Part shown: positions 47,782 through 62,211 of the stretch, piece by piece
Layout of the letters: each line of letters opens with the position of its first letter
How positions within the stretch are numbered: the stretch's first letter is position 1
Assembly: GCA_964647615.1 (NCBI GenBank)
Contig: CAZYIV010000008.1
Span: 910-64,909, forward strand
Length of the DNA stretch: 64,000 bases
Direction: 5' to 3'
From: an uncultured Gemmatimonadaceae bacterium
GTDB lineage: Bacteria; Gemmatimonadota; Gemmatimonadetes; Gemmatimonadales; GWC2-71-9
Notes under the pieces: generated by a model
Database searches by the model: none
Seen by the model: only the letters and a program-made list of their open reading frames with translations
What the model was told of the DNA's origin: nothing
Made by a program: the position numbers and the translations under genes

Positions 47782-49074
47782 ATGACCACGCCCGCGCTCC
47801 CCGCCACCCCCGCCCCGCCGGCGCTCCCGCCGCGCAAGGACGACGCCACCCGGCGCGCCGACCTGGCACGCATGAAGCGCATCGCCACCGGGTTCCTGGT
47901 GGTGGCGGCGGCCGTCTTCGTGGTGACCCGCTGGTTCGAGCCGGCGTACCCCTGGCTCGGCTTCGTCCGCGCGACGGCGGAGGCGGCACTGGTGGGCGGT
48001 CTCGCCGACTGGTTCGCCGTGACGGCGCTGTTCCGCCGGCCCCTCGGCCTCCCCATCCCACACACCGCCATCATCCAGACCCAGCAGGCGCGCATCGGCC
48101 GGGTGCTGGGGAACTTCGTGCAGAATCACTTCCTCTCCCACGACGTGCTGGCCGAGCGGCTCGCCAGCATGCGGGTGGCGGAGCGGGCCGCGCGCTGGCT
48201 GGGGGAGGAGGAGAACAGCCGCCGGCTGGCGCGGCACCTGGCGGTGGGCGTCGCGCAGGCCATGCAGACCGTGGAGGAGGAGCAGGCCCGGGCGCTGATC
48301 CAGGAGAGCGCCGTGGCCCGGCTCCGCACCATGCAGCTGGCGCCGCTGCTCGGCAGCGTGCTCTCGGTGGTGGCCACCGACCAGCGGCACCAGGTGCTGC
48401 TGGACGAGGCGCTCCGGCTGGCGGGCGAGACGCTGGAGAAGAACCGGGATGAACTGGCCCGGCGCATCAAGGAGGAAAGCCCATGGTGGGTGCCCACCGC
48501 GGTGGACCAGGCCTTCCAGAAAAAGATCGAGACCGCGAGCCTGCGGCTGATCCAGGAGGTCCGCGCCGACCCGTTCCACCCGCTCCGGCTCAAGTTCGAC
48601 ATCGCGGTGCGGCAGTTCATCGAGCGGCTGCGCTCCTCGGAGGAGGTGCAGCAGCGGGCCGAGACGATGAAGGCGGAGCTGCTGGAGCACCCGGCGGTGG
48701 GGGAGTTCGCCGCGTCGCTGTGGGACCGGGCCCGCGGGGCGGCCGAGCGGTTCAGCGCGGACGCGAGCGACGAGACGCTCGCGCCGCTCTCCCGCGGCAT
48801 CGGCGCGGTGGGCCGGTCGCTGCTGGACAAGCCGGAACGGCTGTCGGAGCTGGACCAGGTGCTCACCGCCTTCGCCGCCTCGGTGGTGGAGCGGCACCGG
48901 CACGAGGTGGCGGACCTCATTGCCGAGACGGTCCGGCGCTGGGACCCGGACTACGCCGTGGAGCGGCTGGAGCTGGCCGTGGGACAGGACCTGCAGTTCA
49001 TCCGGCTCAACGGCACCCTGGTGGGCGGGCTGGCCGGGCTCATCATCTACAGCCTCTCGCTGCTCTTCCGCTGA
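47782..49074 (+). CDS. DUF445 family membrane protein
   Basis: MKRIATG, AEAALVGGLADWFAVTALFR.PLGLPIPHTAII and DLQFIRLNGTLVGG. Confidence 0.93.
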   Translation: MTTPALPATPAPPALPPRKDDATRRADLARMKRIATGFLVVAAAVFVVTRWFEPAYPWLGFVRATAEAALVGGLADWFAVTALFRRPLGLPIPHTAIIQTQQARIGRVLGNFVQNHFLSHDVLAERLASMRVAERAARWLGEEENSRRLARHLAVGVAQAMQTVEEEQARALIQESAVARLRTMQLAPLLGSVLSVVATDQRHQVLLDEALRLAGETLEKNRDELARRIKEESPWWVPTAVDQAFQKKIETASLRLIQEVRADPFHPLRLKFDIAVRQFIERLRSSEEVQQRAETMKAELLEHPAVGEFAASLWDRARGAAERFSADASDETLAPLSRGIGAVGRSLLDKPERLSELDQVLTAFAASVVERHRHEVADLIAETVRRWDPDYAVERLELAVGQDLQFIRLNGTLVGGLAGLIIYSLSLLFR

Positions 49075-49089
49075 CCCCGGCAGGCGCGG

Positions 49090-49125
49090 CACGGCCCCCG
49101 CACGCCGATGCGTGCGGGGGCCGTG
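49090..49125. terminator. 16-bp hairpin after lipoprotein paralog A (convergent with DUF445)
   Basis: CACGGCCCCCGCACGC-CGAT-GCGTGCGGGGGCCGTG. Homologous to the hairpin at 54548. Confidence 0.7.
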
Positions 49126-49139
49126 TGGCGTCCCCGGCA

Positions 49140-51578
49140 TCAGTTGATCGTGATCAGCTGGACCCGGGCATTGTTGAGCAGGTTGCTGTCGGCCTGGATG
49201 GAGCTCAGGCTGAAGGTCGTGGAGTAGCTCCCCGCCGCGACAGCCACCAGGGTCACGGTGAAGTCGGTCTTGCCACCGTTCACCAGGCTCGGCAGCTGGC
49301 AGCTGGTGCCCGTCACCGCGTCGTAGCTGCAGCCCAGGGTCCCGGTGTTCGCGGCGTAGGTGAAGCCCGCACTCGCCGGGATGGTGAAGGTCGCGCCGGG
49401 TGAGTCGTCGGGACCGAGATTCTCGTTCTGCAGCGTGACGGTGAAGGTATCGCCCACCGCCACGACCGGCGCGGCACTGAAGACGTGCAGCTCCAGGTTG
49501 GCGCTGCCGTCGTTGTCGATGATCGTCACCGTCACCGACGCCGGGGTGGCGCCGCTGTAGGCGGGGTCAGTGCTGCTGACGGTGTGGGTGATGGTCGCCG
49601 TCTGCGGCGGCGGTTCGAGCAGGGCGTCGTCCACCGCGCTCACCGGCACCGACAGGGGCAGGGCCCACGCCGCCGTGGTGAAGCTCACGGGCGCCAGGGC
49701 CGCGAGCTGACCGCCGGCGGAGGCGGGCGTCACGTCCACGGTGGCGGTGGGGGCGCTCCGCAGGCAGACATCATAACTGGCACCGGCCCCGCCTTCGGTG
49801 ACGGTCAGTGACGAGCGGTACACGCTGACGGGCGCCAGGGGACTGTACCCGACCAGCTCCAGAGCCCCGCTGGGATTGTAGGTGCGCCAGGCGCGGCTGG
49901 GCGCCGGCACCAGCCCGGTGACGGTCGCGAAGCTGCCGCGGTTGAGGGTGCCGGAACCGTCGGTGATGACCGGAATGACCTCACCGCAATGCCCACCCAG
50001 ATACAGCGGTCCCGGGAGTACTCGCAGCGTCCCGCCGTACACCACGAGTCCACTCACCGCCAGCAGGTCGTGACGGCCGGCGGCGCTGCCCGTCAGGTCG
50101 ATCACCACCGTGCTCGCCGGGTCGAGGTAGAGCCCGGTCGCGCTGAGGGTGCCCACGCCGGGGAGCACCGGAATGCTGGACACGGGTCCGGGCGCAATGG
50201 TGCCACCGGCCGAGAGCACCCCGCCGACCTGTCCCGTGCCACTCAGGGTCCCGCCCGACAGCCCGAGCAGTCCCGACTGCACACTTCCGGAATCGGCCTG
50301 GAAGTCTGCGCTGCCGAGGGAAAGGGTCTGGCCCGCGGCCACGGTGATCGTGCCGGCATTCTCCACATTCGAAAGCCAGGGAAGACTGGCCGGCCCGGCG
50401 AACGTGACCGTGCCGGTGTTCACCAGGCTGTCGAGCTTCAGGCTCAGCGTGCCCGTTCCCGCGTTGACCAGCAGGGTGCCGCTGTTGTGGACCACGGCCA
50501 GGGAGCCCCCGGAGAACTCAACGGTGACCACGTCCGTGGCTGCGGTATCCTGGGGCGTGACGCTGAGGGTGCCGCGACTGTCACTGGGCAGGTGCACCAG
50601 TCCGGCCCCGATGACGTTCACCCGGACGCCGGCCGGCAGCCCACCTGCAGGGGCCCCCACCCAGGGCTGGTCATACGGGTGGTACCAGCTGGCGAGCTGG
50701 TACAGGTCGAGTTCGATCGTCCCCGTCAGCGTGGAGTCGAGAACGTCGATCGAGACACCCTGGACCCGGACGCGGGCCGTGGTCGTCCCGAGCCGTGCCG
50801 GCAGGTCGCCACCCGTCCAGACGAACCTGGGGACGATGTACGGCTGCGTCGGCGGCGGGTACATCAGTGGAGGGACGATGGGCCAGAACTCCACCGCCCC
50901 GGCGCCCAGCACCGTGCCACCCTCCATCCGGAAGTCGACCGCCTCGACGGCATACTGCCGCAGCCGGCCCTCGGCGCCGGTGACCTGCAGCGTTCCCGCG
51001 TTCCGGAAGTACTGCGCGGGGTAGAGGTCCAGGGTGTCGCGCTGGGCCTCGAGGTAGCCGAGGTTGACGATCGAATCCGCCCCGATGTAGCCGGAGCGCC
51101 CGGGGTAGGCGGCGACCAGGCTGCCCTCGTTCACCACCCACGCGGCGGTGACGCTGAGTGCGGTGGTCATGGAGACGGTGCCGCCCGACTTCACGTACAG
51201 CCCGCCGGTCATGGACCAGGGGGCGTTGGCGGTGGTGGCGGAGACCGTGAGGGTCGGATTCGCACCGGCGCCACCGACCACCAGGAAGTCCACCGTGTCC
51301 GGGTTGGACAGGGTCACGGTGTACGTCCCGGCGGCATCGAGGCACACCGTCGCCAGTCTCCGCGGCACGCCGGTGGGGATCCAGTTGGTGCCCACCGACC
51401 AGTCGCCGCTCACCCCGGTCTTCCAGCGCTTGGTGCACGCCGGCGTCGTGACCAGTGCGGCCGGGGCACGGGGGGCGCTGACCGCCGGGCCGACATCGGC
51501 CGGGGCGGTGGGGTCGTCGGTGCAGGCAGCCAGGGAGAGCGCCGCCAGCGCCAGGAGGGGGAGCGTCGGGCACCGCAT
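49140..51578 (-). CDS. Surface lipoprotein paralog A (812 aa): beta-rich passenger-like region, Calx-beta/cadherin-like domain, C-terminal DUF11
   Basis: Lipobox LAAC, W..G..GDWS...NW.P.GVP, G.HD.L.VSG....GGTL, VTEGG....Y.VCL.S.P...AVDD and NLGPDDS...D.N..NN. Confidence 0.85.
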   Translation of the reverse strand: MRCPTLPLLALAALSLAACTDDPTAPADVGPAVSAPRAPAALVTTPACTKRWKTGVSGDWSVGTNWIPTGVPRRLATVCLDAAGTYTVTLSNPDTVDFLVVGGAGANPTLTVSATTANAPWSMTGGLYVKSGGTVSMTTALSVTAAWVVNEGSLVAAYPGRSGYIGADSIVNLGYLEAQRDTLDLYPAQYFRNAGTLQVTGAEGRLRQYAVEAVDFRMEGGTVLGAGAVEFWPIVPPLMYPPPTQPYIVPRFVWTGGDLPARLGTTTARVRVQGVSIDVLDSTLTGTIELDLYQLASWYHPYDQPWVGAPAGGLPAGVRVNVIGAGLVHLPSDSRGTLSVTPQDTAATDVVTVEFSGGSLAVVHNSGTLLVNAGTGTLSLKLDSLVNTGTVTFAGPASLPWLSNVENAGTITVAAGQTLSLGSADFQADSGSVQSGLLGLSGGTLSGTGQVGGVLSAGGTIAPGPVSSIPVLPGVGTLSATGLYLDPASTVVIDLTGSAAGRHDLLAVSGLVVYGGTLRVLPGPLYLGGHCGEVIPVITDGSGTLNRGSFATVTGLVPAPSRAWRTYNPSGALELVGYSPLAPVSVYRSSLTVTEGGAGASYDVCLRSAPTATVDVTPASAGGQLAALAPVSFTTAAWALPLSVPVSAVDDALLEPPPQTATITHTVSSTDPAYSGATPASVTVTIIDNDGSANLELHVFSAAPVVAVGDTFTVTLQNENLGPDDSPGATFTIPASAGFTYAANTGTLGCSYDAVTGTSCQLPSLVNGGKTDFTVTLVAVAAGSYSTTFSLSSIQADSNLLNNARVQLITIN

Positions 51579-51606
51579 GAACGGTCTCCAGAGAGGGTCA
51601 TCTTCC

Positions 51607-51636
51607 ATGGCGTCGAACCCCCGCCGGCCGGGACAT
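51607..51636 (-). promoter_or_regulatory. Putative ECF promoter ATGTCC-N18-CGCCAT (copy 1)
   Basis: On the + strand, ATGGCG at 51607-51612 and GGACAT at 51631-51636. It lies 28 nt from the paralog A ATG. Confidence 0.7.
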
Positions 51637-51650
51637 CCTGCGGAGCGCAC

Positions 51651-51688
51651 CACGCCCCCGGCGGCCGGGCCGGCCACCGGGGGCGTGT
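51651..51688. terminator. Hairpin after the GT2 gene
   Basis: CACGCCCCCGG...CCGGGGGCGTG. Confidence 0.55.
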
Positions 51689-51702
51689 GCCCGCCTGCCC
51701 TC

Positions 51703-53475
51703 CTAGAAGTGGAATCCGTAGCCGAAGAACACCGGCTGCATGCCCAGCAGCCCCAGCCCGCCGATCGCCAGCCCGCCCAGGATCAGCACGAACGGCAGGT
51801 ACACCAGGCGCTGCACCAGCGGATGCTCCCACGGCACGTGGTGCAGCAGCGGCAGCATCACGAACGCCACCGCCAGGCCCAGGAAGCTGAGCTGCACCAG
51901 CTGCAGGCAGGCCACCCCGAAGACCAGCCCGCAGGCCATCTCGAATCCCTGCACCAGCGGGTGATCCGGGTGGCTGCCGGCGATGGCCCGGCGCACCGAG
52001 GCCCACGCCCGCCCCCACGGCGTCCCGCTCGTGCGTTCGGCGACCGCCCGGCTCTTGTCGCCGGTGACGAGGAAGGTGGCCTTGCCGGTCAACAGGTAGC
52101 CCACCACCCCGAGGGATGACATCGGCCCCAGCGCGGCATACATCACCGTGCTCTGGCACAGGAAGCGGAACAGCTGGCGGGGTTTCCCCAGGAGCTCGAT
52201 CACGAAGCACAGGATCGGCGCGATGAACGTGAGCAGGGTGATCAGGAAGAAGTCCCAGCTCTGCACCACCGCGAAGCGCGGGTCCAGCGCGCGGGTCGGC
52301 AGCACCAGCGCGGTGCCGCCCAGTTCCAGCGTCATCGGGTGCGGCTGGGTGAACAGGAAGCCGAACACCAGGTTGGCATCCACCACGAACAGGAAGTACA
52401 CCAGCGCGAGCGGCAGGCTGAGCGCCGGGAAGAGCACGTCCAGCTTCTCCACCAGCGGGATGCGCCGGGCCCGCAGGGCAGGCCACATCTCCCGGGCGAA
52501 GAACTCGCAGGTGCCGCGGGTCCACTTCATGTGCCGCACCCGGAAGGCGCGGATGGTCTCCGGGAACTCCTCGTAGCAGATGACGTCCTCGGCGAAGCGG
52601 CCATGCCAGCCGTGCTGCCGGGCCCGGAGCGAGAAGGCCAGGTCCTCGGAGACGATCTCGGGGAAGCCGCCGATCTCCTGCCACACCTGCCGCCGGATGA
52701 CTGCCCCGTGACCCAGCAGCATCACGAAGCCCCAGCGGTTGCGGAGCGGGTGGTACCAGCGCCAGTGGATATCAATGCCGACCCCCACCGCCGACTGCAG
52801 TGCCCCCCGGCCCTCGGGGTTGGCCCGGTGGTTGGCCTGGACGAAGCCGCAGCGATCGTCCGCCAGCAGCATCGGCACCATCCGCCGCAGGAAGTTGGGC
52901 GGCAGGATCTCGTCGGCGTCCACCAGGGCGAACAGCGGCTCCGTCACGGCCGCGGTGCGGAGGCCGTGATTGGTGTTCCCCGCCTTGAAGCCGGACCGGT
53001 CGGGGCGCCGCACCACCCGCACCCGCTCGCCGTGCCGCGCCGCGAAGGCGTCCACCCGGGCCCGCGCCTCGGGATCGCTGCTGTCGTCGAGCAGGTACAG
53101 GGTCCAGTGCGGGTAGTCCTGGTGGAGGCAGGAGACCGCGCTCTCCTCCACGAAGTCGTTGCAGGTGAGGTAGAGCAGCGCCACCGCCGGCGGGTCCGCC
53201 GGAAGCGGCGGGGGCAGCCGCACTCCATGCACCCGGCGCCGCCGCTGGTGCACCCAGGCGAAGAGCACCACGCCGACGTTGTAGAACCCGTACAGCCACG
53301 CCAGTTCCGTGAACAGGATGAAGAACAGCACCGCACCGGTGGCGAACGCGCCGTGAGCCAGGCCCAGCAGGCTGAGCAGCCGGGGATGGAACCAGGCGAG
53401 GCTCGCGCCCCACGCCGCGAAGATCGCGAGGTACAGCGTGGGCCGGGCGCCCGGAGAAGGAGTGGCGGTGGTCAT
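51703..53475 (-). CDS. Processive membrane GT2 glycosyltransferase (cellulose-synthase-like)
   Basis: N- and C-terminal TM helices, LLDDS, GFKAGN, VDADE, VSED and RHMKW (QxxRW variant). No PilZ domain visible. Confidence 0.92.
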   Translation of the reverse strand: MTTATPSPGARPTLYLAIFAAWGASLAWFHPRLLSLLGLAHGAFATGAVLFFILFTELAWLYGFYNVGVVLFAWVHQRRRRVHGVRLPPPLPADPPAVALLYLTCNDFVEESAVSCLHQDYPHWTLYLLDDSSDPEARARVDAFAARHGERVRVVRRPDRSGFKAGNTNHGLRTAAVTEPLFALVDADEILPPNFLRRMVPMLLADDRCGFVQANHRANPEGRGALQSAVGVGIDIHWRWYHPLRNRWGFVMLLGHGAVIRRQVWQEIGGFPEIVSEDLAFSLRARQHGWHGRFAEDVICYEEFPETIRAFRVRHMKWTRGTCEFFAREMWPALRARRIPLVEKLDVLFPALSLPLALVYFLFVVDANLVFGFLFTQPHPMTLELGGTALVLPTRALDPRFAVVQSWDFFLITLLTFIAPILCFVIELLGKPRQLFRFLCQSTVMYAALGPMSSLGVVGYLLTGKATFLVTGDKSRAVAERTSGTPWGRAWASVRRAIAGSHPDHPLVQGFEMACGLVFGVACLQLVQLSFLGLAVAFVMLPLLHHVPWEHPLVQRLVYLPFVLILGGLAIGGLGLLGMQPVFFGYGFHF

Positions 53476-54314
53476 GGCTGGCGCACCTGCAGGGCCAGCC
53501 CCGCGGCCACAGAGGTGAGGTCGCTGGTGCCCGGCGCCCGCTCGTGCCGCACCATGAAGTGGACCTGCTGCGCGGCACCGAGGCCCAGCGTCAACCGGCC
53601 GTAGGCATCCCACACCGTGCCGTCGAACCCGGCAGGCGACCCGGAGATCCGCCCGGTGGCGACGCCGCCACCCACCCCGATGCCGGCCCCGGGATGCAGC
53701 TCCGCCGCCAGCAGCACCCGCCACTGGGCTTCCTGGCCCACACCGCTCCGGGCGTAGAACACAATCGGCTCCACCCGGAGCGCCGGGCCCACCGGCGTGT
53801 TGAACCCGGCGTGCGCCACCCACTCGGTGCGGTGGTCGGCCCGCGGGCCGGCTTCGACCCCTGCCTTGAGTGCTGTCGCACCGCGGTAGACCACCTGCTC
53901 CGCGCCGAGCAGCGTCTGCCCGATGCCGCCGGGGAGGGTCCGCCGGCCCGCCTGCAGCACCGTGGTGTAGTGCCCGCCCCAGTTGAGCAGCGCGCCGCCG
54001 CTCCAGGTCGGCACCCGCCGCCCGGCGCGAAGCAGCGTGAGGTTGTCGAGGCTCAGGCTGTTGTCGTACCGCCCGAAGAGGCGCATGGCCCCGGACGGCC
54101 AGACCGCCACTTCCAGGGAGCGGAGCCCGAGCCCGGTGGCCTTGTCACCGGCCGGCGTGGTGGGCGCGTTCGCAAAGCTCGAGTACGCGCCCCAGGCCGA
54201 GAGCTCGAGCACGGGGCGGGACGGCGCGGACTGGGCGGCGACCGGGACCCCCGCGGCGAGGGACAGTGTTGCCAGCAGGGCAGGAGCGCGGAGAGGTCGT
54301 GGGGGGAGTGGCAT
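53472..54314 (-). CDS. YaiO-like outer-membrane beta-barrel protein
   Basis: Signal peptide and alternating amphipathic beta-strands, about 280 aa. ATGA overlap with the GT2 start. The family call is from recall and context. Confidence 0.7.
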   Translation of the reverse strand: MPLPPRPLRAPALLATLSLAAGVPVAAQSAPSRPVLELSAWGAYSSFANAPTTPAGDKATGLGLRSLEVAVWPSGAMRLFGRYDNSLSLDNLTLLRAGRRVPTWSGGALLNWGGHYTTVLQAGRRTLPGGIGQTLLGAEQVVYRGATALKAGVEAGPRADHRTEWVAHAGFNTPVGPALRVEPIVFYARSGVGQEAQWRVLLAAELHPGAGIGVGGGVATGRISGSPAGFDGTVWDAYGRLTLGLGAAQQVHFMVRHERAPGTSDLTSVAAGLALQVRQP

Positions 54315-54547
54315 GGCTCGCTCCGGGACAGGGACGCCCGCAGCCACCATGGTGCGGGGATGCCCCGGAGAAGGCAGATGATGCGCCACACCACCGCCGC
54401 TCCGCGTGAGGCGTGCAGCGCGTTGTCCGGCAACGAGATGCGGCGCGGACCCGGAGGCCGCGCGGCGGCGGCGCACTCGACCGAATCGGCGCAGCCTCGC
54501 TCGAATCGGGACAGTGCACCGGATGGGCGGCCGGCCGCGCACGACAT

Positions 54548-54579
54548 GGCCCCCCGCACGCAGCCGCGTGCGGGGGGCC
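54548..54579. terminator. 14-bp hairpin after lipoprotein paralog B
   Basis: GGCCCCCCGCACGC-AGCC-GCGTGCGGGGGGCC. Confidence 0.7.
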
Positions 54580-54596
54580 GTCTCGCCTCCCCGGCT

Positions 54597-56918
54597 TCAG
54601 TTGACCGTGATCAGCTGGACCCGCGCGTTGTTGAGCGGGTTGCTGTCGGGCTGGGTGGAACTCAGGCTGTAGGTCGTCGAGTAACTCCCCGTCGCGACGG
54701 CCACCAGGGTCACGGTGAAGTCGGTCTTGCCACCGTTCACCAGGCTCGGCAGCTGGCAGGTGGTGCCCGTCACCGCGTCGTAGCTGCAGCCGAGGGTCCC
54801 GGTGTTCGCGGCGTAGCTGAAGCCCGTGCTCGCCGGGATGGTGAAGGTCGCGCCGGGCGAGTCGTCGGGACCCAGGTTCTCGTTCTGCAGCGTGATGGTG
54901 AAGCTGTCGCCCACCGCCACTACCGGCGGCGCGCTGACCACGTGCAGCTCCAGGTTGGCGCTGCCGTCGTTGTCCACGATCGTCACCGTGATGCTGCCGA
55001 GCGGGGCGTTCAGGTACGGCGGCGTGGTGCTGGTCACCGTGTGCTGGAGGTCCTCGAGCTGCGGCGGCGGCTCCCGCACGGAGTCATCCACCGCCCCGAC
55101 GGTGAGGGTGCGGGGGAGCCCCCAGTCGGTGCTGGTGAACGTGACGGCAGCGGGCGGTACCAGCTGGCCCAGGGGCGAGCTGGCACTCACGGTGACCGGC
55201 GTGACCGGCTGGCTCCGGAGACACACGCTGTAGCTGGCCCCGGCCCCGCCCTCCGTGACCGTCAGCGAATCCGGCGCGCGGGTCACGGCGAGCAACGGGT
55301 TGTGGCCGACGAGGTAGAGCGAGTCGGCCGGGTTGTGGAGGCGCCAGCCCCGGCCCGGGCCCGGCGTCAGGCCCAGGAACTTGGTGAACGCCCCGCGCGG
55401 CCCGGAGCTGTGGTCCCGGATGATGGGGATCGCCTGGCCGCATACCGCGCTCACGAACGGCGCAATCTCGGTGACCGAGAGGGTCCCGGCGTACGTCACC
55501 CCCCAGGAGACGAACACCTGGTCGTACTCCCCCTTCGCGGTGCCGGCGACGTCGATATCCACGCTGCTGGAGCCATCCATCACCAGGCTGGCCAGGCCGA
55601 GCTGGCCGATCGGCAGCCCCGGCTGGACCTGCGTCCCCGTGAGGACCACGTCGCCGACGCTGCCCACGCCGATGAGGCGGCCGCCGGTCATGTTGAGCCT
55701 CCCGTTATGGTAGGACCCCGCTTCCGCGATGAAGTCGGCGTAGGTGGTGGTCAGGGACGCACCGTAGGCCATCAGCTTGCCCCGATTCCGGACCAGCATG
55801 CCCGCCCGCCCGAACGTGGCCGAGTCCCCGACGGTCGTCACGCTGTCATTCACCAGGCTGTCGGCGAGGAGCACCATGCCGGGCCGGCCAATGAGCGCGA
55901 ACACACCGGCATTCATCACGGCGGTGGCGGACACGGTGTCTTCCATGCTGTCCCCGACTTCGCCGGCGATGGTCAGGTACCCGTCGTTGACGAAGGGCCG
56001 GCTGCCGACCCCGTGGAGCTGCAGGGACCCCCGCACGGTGGCGACGATGGCGGCGCCCGCCGGGAGGTGACCGATGATGCTCGACGGGCGGGTCAGGTAG
56101 AGGACCCCGCTGTCGGCGCCCGAGACCTTGATGGTCTGGGCATAGGCCGAGAATCCGAGCGAACTCACGCTGCCACCCGCCCACACCAACGTGCCGGCCT
56201 GAGCTCCCCCATACCCCGTGAAGGACAGGTACCCGCTCCCCGTCACGGCGCCGCCCTCCATCCGCAACTCGCCCGGGACGACGGCAATGTCCTGCATGCT
56301 GAGGTGCGAGGCCCCGTTGACTTCGATGGTCCCCGTGTTCCGGAAGCCGACGGGGCCGAGAGAACTGACCAGGACGGTGCCCGAGTCGGTCCGCAGCGTC
56401 CCGTAGTTCACCAGGGAATCGAGCACGAGGTCGCTCGGCGCCTGCCAGTGGAGCGTGCCACTCACCTCGACGTAGCCGGTCGAGACCGTCACCGTCTTGG
56501 CGGCGTTGAGGATGAGCCTGCCGCTCTGGACATCGATGCCGGTCGGCACCCGCCAGGTCCCCGCGGCCGCGGGCACGAAGCGGAGCGTGGGTGTGGCACT
56601 GCCGCCGCCGATCACGATCGCCTCCACCGTATCCAGCTTGGCCAGGGTGACGGTATAGCTGCCGGCCGCGTCGAGGCAGGCGATGTCGGTGGCCGTCGGC
56701 ACCCCGGAGGGTGTCCAGCTGGCGGCCGCGCCCCACTGCCCGTTGCTGCCGTTCTTCCAGTGCTTGGTGCAGGCGGGAAAGGCGGCGGTGGAGGTGTGCA
56801 CCGCGGGGCGCACGGCCGCCGAGTCAACCAGCGGCTGCCGTGGAGAGGTGGCGTCCTCGCCGCAGGCGGCCAGGGTCAGGGCCGCCAGCGCCAGGAGGGG
56901 GAGAGTCGGGCAGCGCAT
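54597..56918 (-). CDS. Surface lipoprotein paralog B (773 aa), same architecture as A
   Basis: Near-identical signal peptide (MRCPTLPLLALAAL.LAAC) and DUF11 tail, with a divergent middle. Confidence 0.85.
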   Translation of the reverse strand: MRCPTLPLLALAALTLAACGEDATSPRQPLVDSAAVRPAVHTSTAAFPACTKHWKNGSNGQWGAAASWTPSGVPTATDIACLDAAGSYTVTLAKLDTVEAIVIGGGSATPTLRFVPAAAGTWRVPTGIDVQSGRLILNAAKTVTVSTGYVEVSGTLHWQAPSDLVLDSLVNYGTLRTDSGTVLVSSLGPVGFRNTGTIEVNGASHLSMQDIAVVPGELRMEGGAVTGSGYLSFTGYGGAQAGTLVWAGGSVSSLGFSAYAQTIKVSGADSGVLYLTRPSSIIGHLPAGAAIVATVRGSLQLHGVGSRPFVNDGYLTIAGEVGDSMEDTVSATAVMNAGVFALIGRPGMVLLADSLVNDSVTTVGDSATFGRAGMLVRNRGKLMAYGASLTTTYADFIAEAGSYHNGRLNMTGGRLIGVGSVGDVVLTGTQVQPGLPIGQLGLASLVMDGSSSVDIDVAGTAKGEYDQVFVSWGVTYAGTLSVTEIAPFVSAVCGQAIPIIRDHSSGPRGAFTKFLGLTPGPGRGWRLHNPADSLYLVGHNPLLAVTRAPDSLTVTEGGAGASYSVCLRSQPVTPVTVSASSPLGQLVPPAAVTFTSTDWGLPRTLTVGAVDDSVREPPPQLEDLQHTVTSTTPPYLNAPLGSITVTIVDNDGSANLELHVVSAPPVVAVGDSFTITLQNENLGPDDSPGATFTIPASTGFSYAANTGTLGCSYDAVTGTTCQLPSLVNGGKTDFTVTLVAVATGSYSTTYSLSSTQPDSNPLNNARVQLITVN

Positions 56919-56946
56919 CGAAGGGCTCCAGGTGTGGTCACCTTCA

Positions 56947-56976
56947 ATGGCGATGGACCTGCGTCGCGCGGGACAT
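56947..56976 (-). promoter_or_regulatory. Putative ECF promoter ATGTCC-N18-CGCCAT (copy 2)
   Basis: On the + strand, ATGGCG at 56947-56952 and GGACAT at 56971-56976. It lies 28 nt from the paralog B ATG. Confidence 0.7.
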
Positions 56977-57036
56977 GCTGGAGATTGCCCCACGCCCCCG
57001 GCGGCCGGGGCGGCGGGCGGGACCGGTCGGAGCCCT

Positions 57037-59766
57037 TCAGGGATGGGCGAGTCGCTGGCGCGCCTCGCGGCCCCACTTGAGGATGAGCGGGTCGGCGAGG
57101 CCCCAGGCTTCCATCGCGTTGCAGCCTTCGTCCAGCTGCAGCCGGGCCTCCGCGGTGCGTCCGGCCCCGGCGAGGGCCACCCCGAGCAGGCACTCGAGCT
57201 GGGCGCTCGCGAAGCGGATCGGCGCGCCGGGCTGGCGCGTTCCCTCATACGCGGCGCTCGCGCGGATGACCGCGGCGTCGAATCGCCGCTGCGCGATGGC
57301 CACCATGGCGCCCCAGCGATCCAGGTCGTTGTGCTTGGGCGAGCCCGGCGGGTGCACCGTCGGCAGGACGCTGTCGGCGAACGCCAGCGAGGTCACCGCC
57401 TCGGGCAGCCGGCCCTGCCTGAGCAGCAGCGGGATCCGCTGCCCTCCCAGGTAGGCGAGGTAGGGCGGCGACACGGGGGTGGCCCGCCGGACCATGCGCA
57501 TCGCGGAGTCGAGCAGCGCGAGCCCCTCGTCGGTCCGTCCCCGTGCGGCCCGGAGCAGCGCGAGGTTCCGCACCGCGCTCGCCACCAGCCCGTGGTTCGG
57601 GGCGAGTCCCTCGGCGTAGTACGAGACGGCCAGGGCCTCCAGCGAATCCGCCTCCGCGAGCTTGCCCAGGGCGGCGATGGTGAGCGCCAGCCGCTCATAG
57701 ACCCCGGCCCGGTCCGCGGCGCCGACCGGCTTGCCGGTGACCGCCGCCAGCGTGGCCCGCTGCAGCGACTCCGCGGCAGCGAGCTGCCCGGACTGCCCCA
57801 GGGCAACGCTCAGGTTGTTGGTGATGGTCTGGAGCACCGGATTGTCAGGCGGCAGCTGTTCGCCCAGCATGGTGAGCGTCTGCTCGAACAGTGCCGCGGC
57901 TTCCAGCGACCGCCCCTGCCCCAGCAGCTCGATCGCCTGGGTATGCATCCGGTTGGCGATCGACAGCGTGTCGAGGCCGGAATCGGCGGACTCCAGCGCG
58001 ACCAGCTCCGCGAAGAGGGCCTGCCGCCGGCGCCGGTCCGGGGTGACGGCCGCCAGGTCGTTGATCGCGACCCGCAGGTCCGGGGCGCCGGGCGGTTCGA
58101 TCCGCCGGAGGGTCGCCAGGGACGAGTCGAACATGGGGCGCGCCGCCTCGGCGCCGCGGTAGCTGAGCACCGCCACCGCCAGCTCGTGGTACATGATCGC
58201 CGCCTGCTCGTCGTCGGCGCCGGCCAGGGCCACCCGCAGGTCCACTGCCCGCCGCAGCAGCGACTCGGCGCGGGCGTACTCGCCCCGCGCTCCGCGCATC
58301 TCACCCACGGTCTTGAGCAGCGCCGCCTGCCGGGCCGAGTCCTCCGCCAGCTGCGCGATCCGCTGCTCCGCCTCGTCCAGCAGGGCCACCACCCGCACGG
58401 TGTCGCCCCCGGCCACCTTGCGCGGGTTGGCCCGGTCGAACAGGCCGGTGAGGATCTGCACCATGTCGGTGGCGACGGCGCGCTCCTGCTCGGCCCGGTC
58501 CCGCTCCCGCGCGGCGCGGCGGGCCTGCAGCGTGGCGGTGACGGCGGTGCCCACCAGCAGGGCACCCGTGACCACGCCCGCCACCACCAGCGCACGGTTG
58601 CGGGCCAGGAACTTTTCCGCCCGGTACCCGAACCGGTCCGGCTGGGCCCGCACCGGCAGCCCCGCGAGGTACCGTTCCACGTCGTCGGCCAGGGCGGTGG
58701 CGGAGCCGTAGCGCCGGTCCGGTTCCTTGCGCAGCGCCGCTTGCACGATCACATCCAGGTCGCCTCGCAGCCGCCGGGCCAGCGCCCGGTCGGTCACGCT
58801 GGCGCTCGCGAGCGGCGCCGGCGCCTCGAGGATGGCGCGCTCCAGCTCCAGCAGGGTGCGGTGTGCCGCGGGGAACGGCGTGCGTTCGGTCAGCAGCTGG
58901 AAGAGCAGCACCCCGAGCCCGTACACATCGGTGCGGGTGTCGCACGGCTCGCCGCGGAGCTGTTCCGGGGCGGCATGCTCCGGGGTGAGCAGGCGGCTCT
59001 CCGGCCGGGTGGGATGCACCAGCGAGGCATCGGCATCGGGGTCGAGCAGCCGCGCGATGCCGAAGTCGAGCAGCCGCGGCGTGCCGTCGGCCTCGACCAG
59101 GATGTTGGACGGCTTGAGGTCCCGGTGGATCACCAGCTGCGCGTGGGCGAACTCCACCACCCGCGCCACCCGCACGAACAGCCGGAGCCGCGCCTCGAGG
59201 TCGAGCCCCCGGTCCCGCACGAACCGGGTGATCGGGCTCCCATCCACATACTGCAGCACCAGGTAGGGCCGCCCGTCGGCGAGCGAGCCGCCGTCCACGA
59301 TGGCCGCGATCCCCGGGTGCACCAGCCGCGCCAGCGCCTGCCGCTCCACCCGGAATCGGCGCACCGTCTCCGCGGTGCGGTACCCTGGCCGGAGCACCTT
59401 GAGCGCCACCACCTGGCGGTAGGCACCGTCCACCCGCTCCGCCCGGTAGACCTCGCCCATGCCGCCCTGCCCGACCAGCGCCTCGACCCGCCACGGCCCC
59501 ACCCGGCTGCCCGCAGGGAGGTCGTGCGCCCGGAGCAGCGGATCCGAGGGCCGCAGCCGGCGTTCCTCCTCGAACAGCAGCGGGGTGCCGTCCTCGTGGG
59601 CGGCGAGCATGGCCAGCAGCTCGCGCAGGAGCTCAGGGTCGTTGGGGGTGGCGTGCAGCAGGTAGGGACGGCGGTCGGGTCCGGGCAGCTCCAGCGCCGC
59701 CGCGAACAAGTCCGACAGCCGGCTCCAGCGTTCCTGGGGGCTCGAGGGGCGGGGATCCGGGGACAT
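57037..59766 (-). CDS. Membrane Ser/Thr kinase with TPR region, cognate of the ECF sigma factor
   Basis: N-terminal W.RL..LF.AALEL....R..YL helix typical of TIGR02999-linked kinases, GQGGMGEVY, VALK, HRDLKPSN, DFG, APEQ, RRLRGDLD.I...AL.KEPDRRY, TM helix and TPRs. Confidence 0.93.
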   Translation of the reverse strand: MSPDPRPSSPQERWSRLSDLFAAALELPGPDRRPYLLHATPNDPELLRELLAMLAAHEDGTPLLFEEERRLRPSDPLLRAHDLPAGSRVGPWRVEALVGQGGMGEVYRAERVDGAYRQVVALKVLRPGYRTAETVRRFRVERQALARLVHPGIAAIVDGGSLADGRPYLVLQYVDGSPITRFVRDRGLDLEARLRLFVRVARVVEFAHAQLVIHRDLKPSNILVEADGTPRLLDFGIARLLDPDADASLVHPTRPESRLLTPEHAAPEQLRGEPCDTRTDVYGLGVLLFQLLTERTPFPAAHRTLLELERAILEAPAPLASASVTDRALARRLRGDLDVIVQAALRKEPDRRYGSATALADDVERYLAGLPVRAQPDRFGYRAEKFLARNRALVVAGVVTGALLVGTAVTATLQARRAARERDRAEQERAVATDMVQILTGLFDRANPRKVAGGDTVRVVALLDEAEQRIAQLAEDSARQAALLKTVGEMRGARGEYARAESLLRRAVDLRVALAGADDEQAAIMYHELAVAVLSYRGAEAARPMFDSSLATLRRIEPPGAPDLRVAINDLAAVTPDRRRRQALFAELVALESADSGLDTLSIANRMHTQAIELLGQGRSLEAAALFEQTLTMLGEQLPPDNPVLQTITNNLSVALGQSGQLAAAESLQRATLAAVTGKPVGAADRAGVYERLALTIAALGKLAEADSLEALAVSYYAEGLAPNHGLVASAVRNLALLRAARGRTDEGLALLDSAMRMVRRATPVSPPYLAYLGGQRIPLLLRQGRLPEAVTSLAFADSVLPTVHPPGSPKHNDLDRWGAMVAIAQRRFDAAVIRASAAYEGTRQPGAPIRFASAQLECLLGVALAGAGRTAEARLQLDEGCNAMEAWGLADPLILKWGREARQRLAHP

Positions 59767-59777
59767 TCTGCTCCTGA

Positions 59778-59807
59778 ATGGCGACGGTCGCCGCCCCGGC
59801 CGGACAT
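59778..59807 (-). promoter_or_regulatory. Putative ECF promoter ATGTCC-N18-CGCCAT (copy 3)
   Basis: On the + strand, ATGGCG at 59778-59783 and GGACAT at 59802-59807, in the 58-nt gap between the sigma and kinase genes. Confidence 0.7.
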
Positions 59808-59824
59808 CCCCGGCCGGCGGAGGG

Positions 59825-60355
59825 CTACTCCGGCAGGTCGAGCGCCTGGGCGACTTCCTTCCGCAGCCAGGCCCGGGCGGCGAGCCAGTCGCGCTGGACG
59901 GTCTTGCCGGAGACGCCCAGCAGGTCGCCGGTCTCCTCCAGCGACAATCCCCCGAAGAACCGGTACCGCACCACCTCGGCGCCGCGGGGACTCACCTCCT
60001 CCAGCCGCTCCAGCGCCTCGTCCAGCACCACGAGGTGGTCGGCCTCCTCGGTGGTGAGGAGCATCTCCGCGTCCTCCAGCGGGACCGGCGTCGCGCCGCC
60101 TCCGCGCTTCTGCCGCAACCGGGTCCGGGCGTAGTCCACCAGGATCCGGCGCATGGTGGTGACCGCGATGGCGAAGAACCGGGGCCGCTCCGGCTCGTCC
60201 AGGCCGCTCTGCGCCGCGAGCCGAAGCCAGGCCTCGTTCACCAGCCCGCTGGTATCGAGGGTGTGGCCCACCCGCTCCCGGCGCAGCAGCCCCCGCGCGA
60301 TCTGGCGCAGTTCGTCGTAGTGCTGGGCAATCAGGTCGGCAGCGGTATCGGGCAT
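59825..60355 (-). CDS. ECF sigma factor, TIGR02999/Sigma70_ECF (ECF43/EcfK-like)
   Basis: Y.ELRQIAR.LL.RER.GHTL...LV.EAWLRL, FFAIA...MRRILVDYAR...QKRGG and FFGGLS.EE....L.VS..TV.RDW..ARAWL. Confidence 0.93.
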   Translation of the reverse strand: MPDTAADLIAQHYDELRQIARGLLRRERVGHTLDTSGLVNEAWLRLAAQSGLDEPERPRFFAIAVTTMRRILVDYARTRLRQKRGGGATPVPLEDAEMLLTTEEADHLVVLDEALERLEEVSPRGAEVVRYRFFGGLSLEETGDLLGVSGKTVQRDWLAARAWLRKEVAQALDLPE

Positions 60356-60474
60356 GTCGCCAAGATGCAGGGCGGGTCGCGAGGGCGGAAGGCGGCCCCC
60401 GGAGACCCGAAGTCAGAGTGACGTGGATCACGGGCGGTGCTATCCTACGACCGACCCGTCACAGTGATAAGACG

Positions 60475-62211
60475 ATGGAATTCCGGTTCCTGCTCACTCT
60501 CGCCCTGCCCACCGCGCTGCTGGCCCAGCGCCCCGCCGAGTGGGCCCTCCACGGGCACGACCTGGGCGGGCAGCGCTACTCCCCGCTCCGGACGATCGAC
60601 ACCCTGACCGTGGCGCGTCTCGCCCCCGCGTGGACCTGGCACAGCGGGATCAAGGCCACCTTCCAGGCCACGCCCATCGTGGTGGACGGCGTGATGTATG
60701 TGTCGCTGCCGAGGAGCGGGGTCGCCGCCCTCGACGCGGCGACCGGCCGCGAACGGTGGCGCTACACCCACCAGTCGCGCAGCGAGCAGCTGTGCTGCGG
60801 ACCGGCCAACCGGGGCGTCGCGGTGGCGGGCGGCCTGGTGTATGTCGGCACGGTGGACGGTCGCCTGCTGGCCCTCGATGCCCGCACCGGCGCGGTGCGC
60901 TGGGACGTCACGGTGGCGGAGTATGCCGGCACCACCGAGGCCACCGGCCAGCTCACGGCGGACGATCCGCTCTCGCGGGTCGGCAAGGTCGGCTCGACCG
61001 GCGTCGGCATCAGCGCCGCGCCCCTGGTGCACGATGGCCGGGTCTTCGTCGGCATCGCGGGGGTGGGCTACGGCCTCCACCCCGACACCGGCCTCGCGGT
61101 GGTGGGGGTCGCGGGCCAGTACGGCCGGCCGGGACTGATGGCGGCCTTCGACGCGCGGACCGGCAAGCGGCTCTGGGGCTTCAACGTCACGGGGCCCGGC
61201 TGGGAGGGCGAGATCCGGGACAGCACCGCGTACGGCGTGCCGATGCACCGCGACGTCGGGGCGGAGCGCGCGGCGGTGGCGGAACATCGCGCGGCGTGGC
61301 GCTACGGCGGCGGATCGATCTACACCACGCCGGTGGTGGATGCCGCGCGGCACCTGCTCATCTTCGGGACCGGCAACCCCTCACCCCAGATGGCCGACGC
61401 CTCCCGCCCCGGCGACAACCTGCACACTTCCTCGCTGGTGGCGCTGGACGAACGCACCGGGCGCCTGGTCTGGGCCTACCAGCAGACGCCGCACGACCAG
61501 TGGGGCTACGACGTCGCGAGCTCCCCGGTGCTGCTCGACCTCACGCTCGACGGGCGCACCGTCCCCGCGGTGGCGCAGGCGAGCAAGCTCGGCTGGGTCT
61601 TCGTCCACGACCGGCGCGACGGCCGGCTGCTCTTCCGCTCCGACGCCTTCGTGCCGCAGCGCAACCTCTTCACCCCGCCGCAGCCGGGGGAAGGTGTGGT
61701 GATCGCGCCCGGAATCGGCGGCGGGGCCAACTGGTCACCCTCCGCGTACGATCCGGGCCGGGCACTCTTCCTGGTGGGAGCGCTGCACCTCCCCACCCGC
61801 TATATCGCGCACGAGGCACCCCGCCCCGACGGCACCGTGCTGCAGTATGCCTCCACCCAGAACACCGGCGAGGCCTGGGGCACGCTCACCGCGCTGGACC
61901 TGGCGCGGGGCGGCCGCATCGCCTGGCAGGTACGGACCGAGCAGCCGCTGCTCGGCGGGGTGCTGGCGACGGCGGGCGGCCTGCTGTTCGCCGGCGCGGG
62001 CCATGAGCGCCTGGCGGCGTTCGACGTGGCCAGCGGAAAGGAACTCTGGTCCTGGCAGGCGGAAGCGGGCGTGAACGCGCCGCCAGTCACCTACGCGGTG
62101 CGGGGGCGGCAGTACGTGGCGGTGGCGGCAGGCGGGAACTCGCTGTTCGGGTTCCCGGTGGGCGATGCGGTGGTGGCCTTCACGCTCGACGGGGCCGGCG
62201 CGCAACGCTAG
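60475..62211 (+). CDS. PQQ-dependent dehydrogenase-like beta-propeller protein
   Basis: Signal peptide, G...QRYSPL..ID, QATPIV.DG.MY, vicinal CC (LCCGPANRG), GGG..Y, GTGNP, PG..GGANW and G.NA.PVTY...GRQYVAV..GG. Confidence 0.88.
   Translation: MEFRFLLTLALPTALLAQRPAEWALHGHDLGGQRYSPLRTIDTLTVARLAPAWTWHSGIKATFQATPIVVDGVMYVSLPRSGVAALDAATGRERWRYTHQSRSEQLCCGPANRGVAVAGGLVYVGTVDGRLLALDARTGAVRWDVTVAEYAGTTEATGQLTADDPLSRVGKVGSTGVGISAAPLVHDGRVFVGIAGVGYGLHPDTGLAVVGVAGQYGRPGLMAAFDARTGKRLWGFNVTGPGWEGEIRDSTAYGVPMHRDVGAERAAVAEHRAAWRYGGGSIYTTPVVDAARHLLIFGTGNPSPQMADASRPGDNLHTSSLVALDERTGRLVWAYQQTPHDQWGYDVASSPVLLDLTLDGRTVPAVAQASKLGWVFVHDRRDGRLLFRSDAFVPQRNLFTPPQPGEGVVIAPGIGGGANWSPSAYDPGRALFLVGALHLPTRYIAHEAPRPDGTVLQYASTQNTGEAWGTLTALDLARGGRIAWQVRTEQPLLGGVLATAGGLLFAGAGHERLAAFDVASGKELWSWQAEAGVNAPPVTYAVRGRQYVAVAAGGNSLFGFPVGDAVVAFTLDGAGAQR

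What the first reader, a model, noticed from the sequence alone, without database searches (positions are those of the whole stretch)
51607..59807. Three exact copies of ATGTCC-N18-CGCCAT, a likely ECF -35/-10 promoter
Seen: minus-strand copies at 51607-51636, 56947-56976 and 59778-59807. Both hexamers and the 18-nt spacing are identical while the spacers differ. Copies 1 and 2 could come from the gene duplication, but copy 3 precedes an unrelated gene (the kinase), which gives independent support and would imply positive feedback. A weaker variant (CTGTCC-N17-CGCCGAT, 54485-54514) lies upstream of the YaiO gene. Caveat: copy 3 ends only 11 nt from the ATG, so its 5' leader would be very short.
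Basis: partly seen in the sequence, partly recalled or inferred. Interest (0 to 1): 0.8.

Follow-up and report, generated by a model that had tools for sequence, protein, structure and literature searches.

The report
Promoters of a kinase-linked ECF sigma factor
Three identical two-part DNA signals beside an alternative sigma factor gene in a Gemmatimonadales genome are very probably the promoters this sigma factor reads, switching on its partner kinase and two surface lipoproteins; this is a new example of a well-known kind of switch.

Summary
ATGTCC-N18-CGCCAT occurs three times, all on the minus strand, against 0.03 expected. Each copy lies just upstream of a gene next to a TIGR02999 ECF sigma gene: the Ser/Thr kinase (11 nt before its ATG) and two paralogous DUF11 lipoproteins (28 nt).

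Comparative data support a promoter. In all 8 orthologous Gemmatimonadales loci, TGTCC-N18-CGCCA fills the sigma-kinase gap while the spacer varies. It also precedes every DUF11 lipoprotein gene (4/4) and every SBP56-like lipoprotein gene (5/5), wherever those genes sit.

Across 96 related loci the first block co-varies with the sigma 4.2 helix. KTVQRDW sigmas go with TGTCC (18/19). SPGTVMRDW sigmas go with TTAGAGG-N-CGCGTTA (12/13). There are no crossovers.

The geometry equals the 5'RACE-validated ECF41 promoter TGTCACA-n16-CGTC. No RNA family, stable fold, small ORF or repeat element explains the sites.

The 9-11 nt gap to the kinase ATG is conserved, which predicts a nearly leaderless kinase mRNA. 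The sigma gene has a different, housekeeping-like promoter, so any feedback runs through the kinase.

The weak variant at 54485-54514 and the 'YaiO' label are not supported. No start site or sigma dependence has been measured. Verdict: a new member of a known kind.

The parts
59778..59807 (-). Copy 3: predicted sigma-dependent promoter of the kinase gene (GATGTCC-N18-CGCCAT). It lies between the sigma stop codon (59825) and the kinase ATG (59766).
   Evidence: Exact match, 24.2 bits. The same motif fills the sigma-kinase gap in all 8 orthologous loci, with a variable spacer and a 9-11 nt gap to the ATG.
56947..56976 (-). Copy 2: predicted promoter of DUF11 lipoprotein A, 28 nt upstream of its ATG. 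GGAG lies 7 nt before the ATG.
   Evidence: The DUF11 orthologues in L001 and L003 carry the motif in otherwise unrelated upstream sequence.
51607..51636 (-). Copy 1: predicted promoter of DUF11 lipoprotein B, 28 nt upstream of its ATG. It follows a strong hairpin that ends the GT2 gene.
59825..60355 (-). ECF sigma factor gene (176 aa) of the TIGR02999 / PF07638 family. Its 4.2 helix reads VSGKTVQRDW and its region 2.2 reads HTLDTSG.
   Evidence: TIGR02999 at 176.4 bits against a cut-off of 126.15. PF07638 at E=2e-44. Orthologue alignment.
57037..59766 (-). Hanks-type Ser/Thr kinase (909 aa). It has one transmembrane segment at about residues 392-411 and a C-terminal TPR region. It is the predicted activator of the sigma factor.
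   Evidence: Pkinase at E=8e-38 and TPR_12. Hydrophobic segment. It is syntenic with the sigma gene in 7 of the 8 close loci; L004 keeps only about 14 kinase codons.
54597..56918 (-). DUF11 lipoprotein A (773 aa; signal peptide MRCPTLPLLALAALTLAAC). Predicted target gene.
   Evidence: PF01345. ATG position. 45% identical to paralogue B.
49140..51578 (-). DUF11 lipoprotein B (812 aa). Predicted target gene. It is the closer orthologue of the single DUF11 gene in L001 and L003 (54%).
60362..60390 (-). Housekeeping-like promoter of the sigma gene itself: TTCCGC-N17-CATCTT, followed 6 nt later by the sigma ATG. It is not the ECF motif.
   Evidence: CTTGAr-N17-CATCTT(A/G)GC, followed 6-7 nt later by ATG or GTG, is conserved in all 8 orthologous loci. 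The generic sigma-70 consensus scan did not flag it.
51651..51687 (-). 17-bp GC hairpin after the GT2 stop codon, just upstream of copy 1. It looks like a terminator but has no U tract.
   Evidence: -53 kcal/mol, z=-4.0.
54543..54582 (-). Strong hairpin after the stop codon of DUF11 lipoprotein A. It probably ends the transcript that starts at copy 2.
   Evidence: -54.1 kcal/mol, z=-5.35, and 0 of 200 shuffles fold as well.

Best explanation
The three sites are promoters read by RNA polymerase carrying the adjacent TIGR02999-family ECF sigma factor. The sigma-4 domain would contact GATGTCC (-35) and the sigma-2 domain would contact CGCCAT (-10), 18 nt apart.

The sigma gene is transcribed from its own housekeeping-like promoter. 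The membrane Ser/Thr kinase next to it has a TPR domain after its transmembrane segment and presumably activates the sigma factor, as shown for ECF43 relatives. Active sigma then transcribes three units: (i) the kinase gene, from a start only a few nucleotides before its ATG, giving a leaderless or nearly leaderless mRNA and positive feedback through the kinase; (ii) and (iii) the two DUF11 surface lipoprotein genes, with Shine-Dalgarno leaders of about 20 nt.

Shown here: the motif, its conservation, its positions, its co-variation with the sigma 4.2 helix, and its geometry.

Inferred, not shown: sigma dependence, the start sites, activation by the kinase, and the envelope signal.
For: 1. There are three exact copies against 0.03 expected, and no other site of 14 bits or more in 64 kb.
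2. All 8 loci whose sigma is 80-89% identical carry TGTCC-N18-CGCCA between sigma and kinase. Their kinases are only about 63% identical. The flanking G and A before TGTCC and the T after CGCCA were not part of the search pattern, yet they are present in 15, 14 and 16 of 18 sites. Most spacer positions carry little information.
3. Every orthologue of each target family in the loci has the motif: DUF11 4/4 and SBP56-like 5/5. This holds although the SBP56 gene lies downstream of the kinase in L002 and divergently upstream of sigma in L005-L008.
4. No weight-matrix hit precedes the sigma, PQQ dehydrogenase, flavodoxin, DUF445 or GT2 genes.
5. Orientation always matches the downstream gene, while the distance to the ATG ranges from 9 to 45 nt.
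6. Among 96 related loci, sigmas with a K[TS][VI]QR[DET]W helix have the TGTCC motif in 18/19. Sigmas with SPGT[VI][MA]R[DE]W have TTAGR-N17/18-CGCGT in 12/13. There are no crossovers. Fisher p=4e-8, not corrected for phylogeny.
7. The geometry equals the ECF41 promoter TGTCACA-n16-CGTC, which was validated by 5'RACE and reporter assays (PMC3426412).
8. The 9th base after CGCCAT is a purine in 18/18 sites, which makes it a candidate start site.
9. A strong hairpin precedes copy 1. There is no Rfam match, and the sites fold no better than shuffled sequence.
Against: - There are no transcription start or expression data.
- The -35 block lacks the AAC typical of most ECF promoters, and the -10 block is CGCC rather than CGTC.
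- The kinase site leaves no room for a Shine-Dalgarno leader. In this window an AGGAG sits between CGCCAT and the ATG, and the predicted transcript would not contain it.
- One-mismatch versions of the motif are at background frequency.
- Only about 20 kb around each sigma gene could be examined, so genome-wide specificity is unknown.
- The residue aligned with the EcfP phospho-threonine is Ser, Gly or Ala among the orthologues, so the mode of activation may differ from EcfP.
- The co-variation statistic ignores shared ancestry.
Confidence: 0.8

Rival explanations
1. The sites are ECF-type promoters, but a different sigma factor reads them. One candidate is the paralogous TIGR02999 sigma that lies about 7 kb away in L001 and L003. 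The neighbouring sigma would then be only a bystander.
For: TIGR02999 sigmas occur in several copies per genome. L001 and L003 hold a second sigma-kinase pair. Recognition has not been tested directly.
Against: The motif follows this sigma gene in L002 and L004-L008, where no second sigma lies within 10 kb. The -35 block co-varies with the 4.2 helix of the adjacent sigma across 32 loci. The paralogue has a different helix (VTPRTVTRDW) and no such motif beside it.
Confidence: 0.08
2. The conserved bipartite element is the operator of a DNA-binding regulator, either repressor or activator, and not a promoter.
For: It is a conserved cis element close to gene starts. The outer bases form a weak palindrome (ATG...CAT).
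Against: The two blocks are neither direct nor inverted repeats of each other. Orientation is strictly the same as the downstream gene. No regulator gene other than the sigma and kinase is conserved in the loci. The 23-bp offset between the starts of the two blocks, and the CGC core of the second, fit -35/-10 geometry. The co-variation is with a sigma helix.
Confidence: 0.06
3. The matches are leftovers of duplication, a short repeat or mobile element, a small ORF (ATG TCC x6 CGC CAT), or an RNA structure in the intercistronic transcript.
For: Copies 1 and 2 lie in a duplicated block of about 150 nt. N18 equals six codons. Copy 3 can form a local hairpin.
Against: Copy 3 and the 15 sites in other genomes share no flanking similarity. 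The base before TGTCC is G or C in four of 18 sites, which removes the ATG (GTG remains in three of them). The spacer shows no conserved coding pattern. Folding z-scores are -1.8, +1.2 and -0.05. Rfam gives no match.
Confidence: 0.03

Closest known systems
ECF41-dependent promoter TGTCACA-n16(+/-1)-CGTC (Wecke et al. 2012, PMC3426412)
   Same: It is bipartite. Its -35 block starts with TGTC, and its -10 block has a CG-C core. Counted from the 5-mer, the spacing is identical (TGTCA-N18-CGTC against TGTCC-N18-CGCC). It sits in front of genes next to the sigma gene, and often the target gene carries it rather than the sigma gene. It was validated by 5'RACE and reporter assays.
   Different: The sigma here is not ECF41: it has 176 aa and no C-terminal regulatory extension, and it belongs to TIGR02999/PF07638. 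The -35 block is TGTCC rather than TGTCACA, and the -10 block is CGCCAT rather than CGTC. The targets are a kinase and lipoproteins, not carboxymuconolactone decarboxylase, oxidoreductase or epimerase genes.
ECF43 sigma factors activated by Ser/Thr kinases (EcfP/PknT of Vibrio parahaemolyticus; EcfK/PknS of Xanthomonas citri)
   Same: An ECF sigma gene lies next to a transmembrane Hanks-type kinase gene. No anti-sigma gene is present. The acidic DAED patch of region 2.2 is largely replaced (DT[S/G/A]G here). Ser/Thr residues in the sigma2-sigma4 linker are conserved (LLTTEEAD), as with the linker phosphosites of EcfK.
   Different: The residue aligned with the EcfP phospho-threonine is not conserved (Ser, Gly or Ala), and the first Asp is kept. 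I found no published promoter motif for ECF43 in the papers I could read. I could not classify the sigma with ECF Hub models. The phylum is Gemmatimonadota, and the regulon is different.
Canonical autoregulated ECF promoters (GGAAC-N16/17-CGTC type, such as sigma-E and sigma-W)
   Same: It has the two-block architecture, a C/G-rich -10 core that begins with CG, and a location within the sigma locus.
   Different: The -35 block has no AAC. The motif lies downstream of the sigma gene, not upstream. Searches for autoregulatory motifs upstream of ECF genes, as described in PMC7826278, would therefore miss it. Feedback would act through the activator kinase and not through sigma synthesis.

Membership tests
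ECF sigma-dependent promoter | Two conserved blocks separated by a spacer of fixed length and free sequence, about 16-18 nt | tested here: met
   The spacer is N18 in all 18 sites of the close group. The blocks are invariant, and most spacer positions carry little information. Weight-matrix hits with N17 or N19 score 17.7 bits or less, and those inspected lie inside coding sequence.
ECF sigma-dependent promoter | -10 block with a CGT-type core | tested here: inconclusive
   The core is CGCC (close group) or CGCG (more distant groups) rather than CGTC. It shares CG-C with the ECF41 and general ECF consensus.
ECF sigma-dependent promoter | -35 block containing AAC | tested here: not met
   The -35 block is GATGTCC. 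Group-specific exceptions exist, for example the validated ECF41 block TGTCACA, so this feature is typical but not obligatory.
ECF sigma-dependent promoter | Lies upstream of genes, in their orientation, in or near the locus of the cognate sigma | tested here: met
   All 18 sites lie 9-45 nt upstream of a start codon on the same strand and within about 3.5 kb of the sigma-kinase pair. The one exception is window copy 1, which lies about 8 kb away.
ECF sigma-dependent promoter | Promoter sequence co-varies with the DNA-contacting regions of the sigma | tested here: met
   18/19 KTVQR-type sigmas go with TGTCC and 12/13 SPGTVM-type sigmas go with TTAGR, with no crossovers. The statistic is not corrected for phylogeny.
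ECF sigma-dependent promoter | Transcription starts about 6-9 nt downstream of the -10 block and depends on the sigma | not testable with these tools
   The only indirect hint is that the 9th base after CGCCAT is a purine in 18/18 sites.
TIGR02999 / PF07638 ECF sigma family | Score above the curated model cut-off | tested here: met
   TIGR02999 scores 176.4 bits against a cut-off of 126.15. PF07638 scores 152 bits against 21.1.
ECF43-type kinase-activated sigma | Adjacent Hanks-type Ser/Thr kinase gene and no anti-sigma gene | tested here: met
   The kinase lies immediately downstream in the window and in 7 of the 8 close orthologous loci; L004 retains only the first ~14 kinase codons. The window's other neighbours are a PQQ dehydrogenase and lipoproteins; neighbours in the loci were located by tblastn only.
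ECF43-type kinase-activated sigma | The DAED patch of region 2.2 is replaced by uncharged residues, with a conserved Thr at the phospho-acceptor position | tested here: inconclusive
   The region reads D-T-[S/G/A]-G. Two of the three acidic residues are lost. The position aligned with the EcfP/EcfK phospho-Thr varies, while the preceding Thr is invariant (literature).
ECF43-type kinase-activated sigma | Assignment by ECF Hub group models, and phosphorylation by the kinase | not testable with these tools
Housekeeping sigma-70 promoter | TTGACA-N16-18-TATAAT-like hexamers | tested here: not met
   The consensus scan of 49000-61000 found no sites, and ATGTCC/CGCCAT do not resemble these hexamers.
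Known structured RNA (Rfam) | Match to a covariance model, or a fold more stable than shuffled sequence | tested here: not met
   No Rfam match at E<=1 in 48000-62000. Folding z-scores are -1.8, +1.2 and -0.05.

The most novel reading that the evidence does not exclude
TIGR02999-family sigma/kinase modules share a wiring that searches upstream of sigma genes would miss. The sigma gene is made constitutively from a housekeeping-type promoter as a leaderless mRNA. A sigma-dependent promoter is wedged between the sigma stop codon and the kinase start; in some genomes it overlaps the stop codon. The activating kinase is therefore produced from a leaderless or nearly leaderless transcript, and positive feedback runs through the kinase and not through the sigma. 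Each sub-lineage has evolved its own -35 block (TGTCC or TTAGAGG) together with its 4.2 helix, while keeping N18 and a CGC -10 core. That would give a natural set of mutually orthogonal sigma/promoter pairs.
Probability: 0.45. Interest if true: 0.6.

Novelty: new member of a known kind. Interest (0 to 1): 0.45.

Why it matters
Kinase-activated ECF sigma factors are widespread, for example in Gemmatimonadota (this work) and Planctomycetes (literature). Only a few proteobacterial members have been studied, and I found no published target promoters for them in the literature available here.

A precise and conserved promoter, GATGTCC-N18-CGCCAT, with defined target genes gives the templates needed to test phosphorylation-dependent transcription in vitro or in a heterologous host. 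It points to a small envelope-related regulon of surface lipoproteins. It also suggests that feedback goes through the kinase.

The co-variation between -35 blocks and 4.2 helices offers candidate orthogonal sigma/promoter pairs, and a rule for predicting regulons in uncultured lineages.

It is still an ECF promoter of familiar architecture. The result is useful but not surprising.

Tried and rejected
- Weak variant at 54485-54514 (CTGTCC-N17-CGCCGAT): it scores 0 bits or less on the weight matrix, I saw no counterpart on reading the L001 region, and no site was found in front of the same operon in L004. Rejected as chance.
- 'YaiO' identity of the 282-aa secreted protein: no Pfam or NCBIfam support even at E<=10.
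- Small ORF reading (M-S-x6-R-H): the ATG is absent in four of 18 sites (GTG remains in three of them), and nothing peptide-like is conserved.
- RNA element: no Rfam match and no excess folding stability.
- Repeat or mobile element: only copies 1 and 2 share flanks.
- Autoregulation of the sigma gene by the same motif: no site lies upstream of sigma on its own strand in any locus.
- Published promoter motif for ECF43/TIGR02999: none found in the literature I could reach. Iyer et al. 2020 is not held, the supplements of PMC7826278 are not held, and 'TIGR02999' returns no papers.
- L004: the kinase gene breaks off after about 14 codons, so that locus gives no information on the kinase.
Full report
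**Observation.** ATGTCC-N18-CGCCAT occurs exactly three times in the window, at 51607-51636, 56947-56976 and 59778-59807, always on the minus strand. Dinucleotide-preserving shuffles give 0.03 matches on average, and none of 100 gave three. A weight matrix built from the conserved blocks, allowing spacers of 17-19 nt, finds only these three sites at 14 bits or more in 64 kb. They score 22-24 bits, and simulated sequence gives 0.03 hits at 18 bits or more. One-mismatch versions of the pattern are at background (14 observed, 10.2 expected).

**Gene context.** All genes below are on the minus strand.
- Sigma factor, 60355-59825. It scores 176 bits on TIGR02999 (cut-off 126) and matches PF07638.
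- Copy 3.
- Hanks-type kinase, 59766-57037. It has one transmembrane segment near residues 392-411 and C-terminal TPR repeats.
- Copy 2.
- DUF11 lipoprotein A, 56918-54597, followed by a strong hairpin.
- An unassigned secreted protein, about 54320-53472.
- A PgaC/CelA-like GT2 glycosyltransferase, about 53481-51703, followed by a strong hairpin.
- Copy 1.
- DUF11 lipoprotein B, 51578-49140.

Copy 3 ends 11 nt before the kinase ATG. Copies 1 and 2 each end 28 nt before an ATG, with GGAG 7 nt upstream of that ATG. Copies 1 and 2 belong to a duplicated block of about 150 nt that runs from half a hairpin through the signal peptide. They count as one observation, although their spacers share only 10 of 18 bases. 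Copy 3 shares only the motif.

**Orthologous loci.** A scan of one genome per species returned eight Gemmatimonadales MAG loci whose sigma is 80-89% identical (L001-L008) and a few more distant ones. Their kinases are only about 63% identical, so neutral intergenic sequence should have diverged.

All eight loci nevertheless have TGTCC-N18-CGCCA in the sigma-kinase gap. The spacers are unrelated, and the kinase ATG follows 9-11 nt later. In L005-L008 the sigma stop codon TGA overlaps the motif (TGATGTCC).

Bases that were not part of the search pattern are conserved as well: G and A before TGTCC (15 and 14 of 18 sites) and T after CGCCA (16 of 18). Most spacer positions carry little information. 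The consensus is GATGTCC-N18-CGCCAT.

**The motif travels with its target genes.**
- The single DUF11 lipoprotein genes of L001 and L003 carry it, about 40-45 nt before the ATG, in upstream sequence unrelated to that of the window.
- An SBP56-like lipoprotein gene (PF05694) carries it in L002, where the gene lies downstream of the kinase.
- The same gene carries it in L005-L008, where it is transcribed divergently from the region upstream of sigma.

Every member of each target family in these loci has a site: kinase 9/9, DUF11 4/4, SBP56-like 5/5. No weight-matrix hit precedes the sigma, PQQ dehydrogenase, flavodoxin, DUF445 or GT2 genes. Real sites score 18.8-24.2 bits and all have N18. The remaining hits score 17.7 bits or less, and those inspected lie inside coding sequence.

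**Co-variation with the sigma factor.** A metagenome scan with a sigma alignment gave 80 more distant loci, 45-65% identical. Sigmas at 55% identity (L009-L012), together with L016, L018, L019, L025, L032 and L074, have TGTCC-N18-CGC(C/G)A right after sigma, on the opposite strand just upstream of it, or both.

A separate, lower-GC sub-lineage has TTAGAGGTT...CGCGTTA at the same two positions, with the same overall spacing.

I sorted loci by the sigma 4.2 recognition helix:

| Sigma 4.2 helix | Loci with TGTCC motif | Loci with TTAGR motif |
|---|---|---|
| K[TS][VI]QR[DET]W | 18 of 19 | 0 |
| SPGT[VI][MA]R[DE]W | 0 | 12 of 13 |

Fisher's test gives p=4e-8, not corrected for shared ancestry. 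This is the pattern expected if the adjacent sigma reads the first block as its -35 element.

**Alternatives.**
- The two blocks are not repeats of each other, which argues against a dimeric regulator.
- Orientation is fixed but the distance to the start codon varies from 9 to 45 nt, which argues against a translational element.
- Rfam finds nothing, and the sites fold no better than shuffled sequence (z -1.8, +1.2, -0.05).
- The ATG that a small ORF would need is absent in four of 18 sites, although three of these keep GTG.
- A strong hairpin ends the upstream GT2 gene before copy 1 (z -4.0), and another follows DUF11 A (z -5.35). This fits separate transcription units that each need their own promoter.

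**Comparison with known promoters.** The ECF41 promoter TGTCACA-n16(+/-1)-CGTC was mapped by 5'RACE and confirmed with reporters (PMC3426412). Counted from the 5-mer it is TGTCA-N18-CGTC, the same geometry and partly the same bases as TGTCC-N18-CGCC. The absence of the usual AAC in the -35 block therefore has precedent.

The sigma itself is not ECF41, because it has no C-terminal extension. It resembles the kinase-activated ECF43 type. It has a neighbouring Hanks kinase and no anti-sigma gene, and its region 2.2 reads D-T-[S/G/A]-G in place of the acidic DAED patch (PMC13147305 and PMC8999054). However, the residue aligned with the EcfP phospho-threonine is not conserved here, while the preceding Thr and a linker TT are. 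The phosphosite therefore remains open.

I found no published promoter motif for this family. The large ECF reclassification looked for motifs through autoregulation of the ECF genes themselves, an approach that would miss a motif downstream of the sigma gene.

**The short leader.** The 9th base after CGCCAT is a purine in 18/18 sites. If that base is the start, the kinase mRNA has a 1-3 nt leader.

The sigma gene shows a similar pattern. All eight orthologous loci have CTTGAr-N17-CATCTT(A/G)GC, followed 6-7 nt later by the sigma start codon. In the window this is 60390-60362. It looks like a housekeeping-type promoter that gives a leaderless sigma mRNA.

The sigma gene is therefore not preceded by its own motif. 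Any positive feedback acts on the kinase.

In this window an AGGAG lies between CGCCAT and the kinase ATG. It is not conserved in the orthologues, and it would serve only read-through transcripts from the sigma promoter.

- The weak variant at 54485-54514 scores 0 bits or less. I saw no counterpart on reading the equivalent L001 region, and L004 has no site before the same operon.
- The 'YaiO' name has no HMM support.

**Verdict.** The promoter interpretation is well supported by comparative evidence (confidence about 0.8) but has not been tested experimentally. It is a new member of the ECF promoter class. The one less usual feature is its wiring: the promoter sits between the sigma and kinase genes, and the kinase message is predicted to be nearly leaderless.

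Noticed in passing
window 60362-60390 (minus strand); L001-L008 just upstream of the sigma gene: A conserved CTTGAr-N17-CATCTT(A/G)GC is followed 6-7 nt later by the sigma start codon in all 8 orthologous loci. It looks like a housekeeping-type promoter that gives a leaderless sigma mRNA. In the window the -35 block is weaker (TTCCGC).
   Followed up: partly
L024, L028, L034, L037, L040, L052, L055, L060, L062, L064, L067, L090 (metagenome loci): A second sigma sub-lineage (GC 0.52-0.63) has TTAGAGGTT...CGCGTTA, about 18 nt between blocks. The sites lie just after the sigma gene, on the opposite strand upstream of it, or both. These sigmas have the 4.2 helix SPGTVMRDW in place of KTVQRDW.
   Followed up: partly
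window 49140-51578 and 54597-56918 (minus strand): The two DUF11 lipoprotein paralogues are mosaic. The promoter, leader and signal peptide are about 80% identical at DNA level. The first 100 residues are about 55% identical, the middle 22-40%, and the last 130 residues or so 83-92%. This suggests gene conversion at the ends or diversification of the middle.
   Followed up: partly
window 51651-51687 and 56990-57010 (minus strand): The duplicated block upstream of DUF11 A begins inside the 3' arm of the hairpin that is complete upstream of DUF11 B. Copy 2 therefore has only half a hairpin and no stable fold (z +1.0 against -4.0).
   Followed up: partly
L004 10573-11500: The promoter and the first 14 or so kinase codons are present, then unrelated sequence follows. 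This is either a real deletion or a chimeric MAG contig. In this locus the secreted protein and GT2 genes lie upstream of sigma.
   Followed up: partly
L001 2864-6106 and L003 2785-about 6050: A second TIGR02999 sigma (47-49% identical) with its own 909-aa kinase lies about 7 kb upstream. Its region 2.2 reads STTA, exactly as in EcfP. Its kinase gene starts 8 nt after the sigma stop codon, with no intervening motif.
   Followed up: partly
It is always paired with the GT2 synthase (window, L001, L004), so a role in polysaccharide export is plausible but unproven.
   Followed up: partly
window 59590-59766 (kinase N-terminus) and all kinase orthologues: A conserved segment of about 60-85 residues (..ERW..I.ELF..AL........FL......D..L..E...LL) precedes the kinase domain in every sigma-linked kinase seen, from Gemmatimonadota to the distant metagenome loci. 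It could be the part that docks the sigma factor.
   Followed up: no
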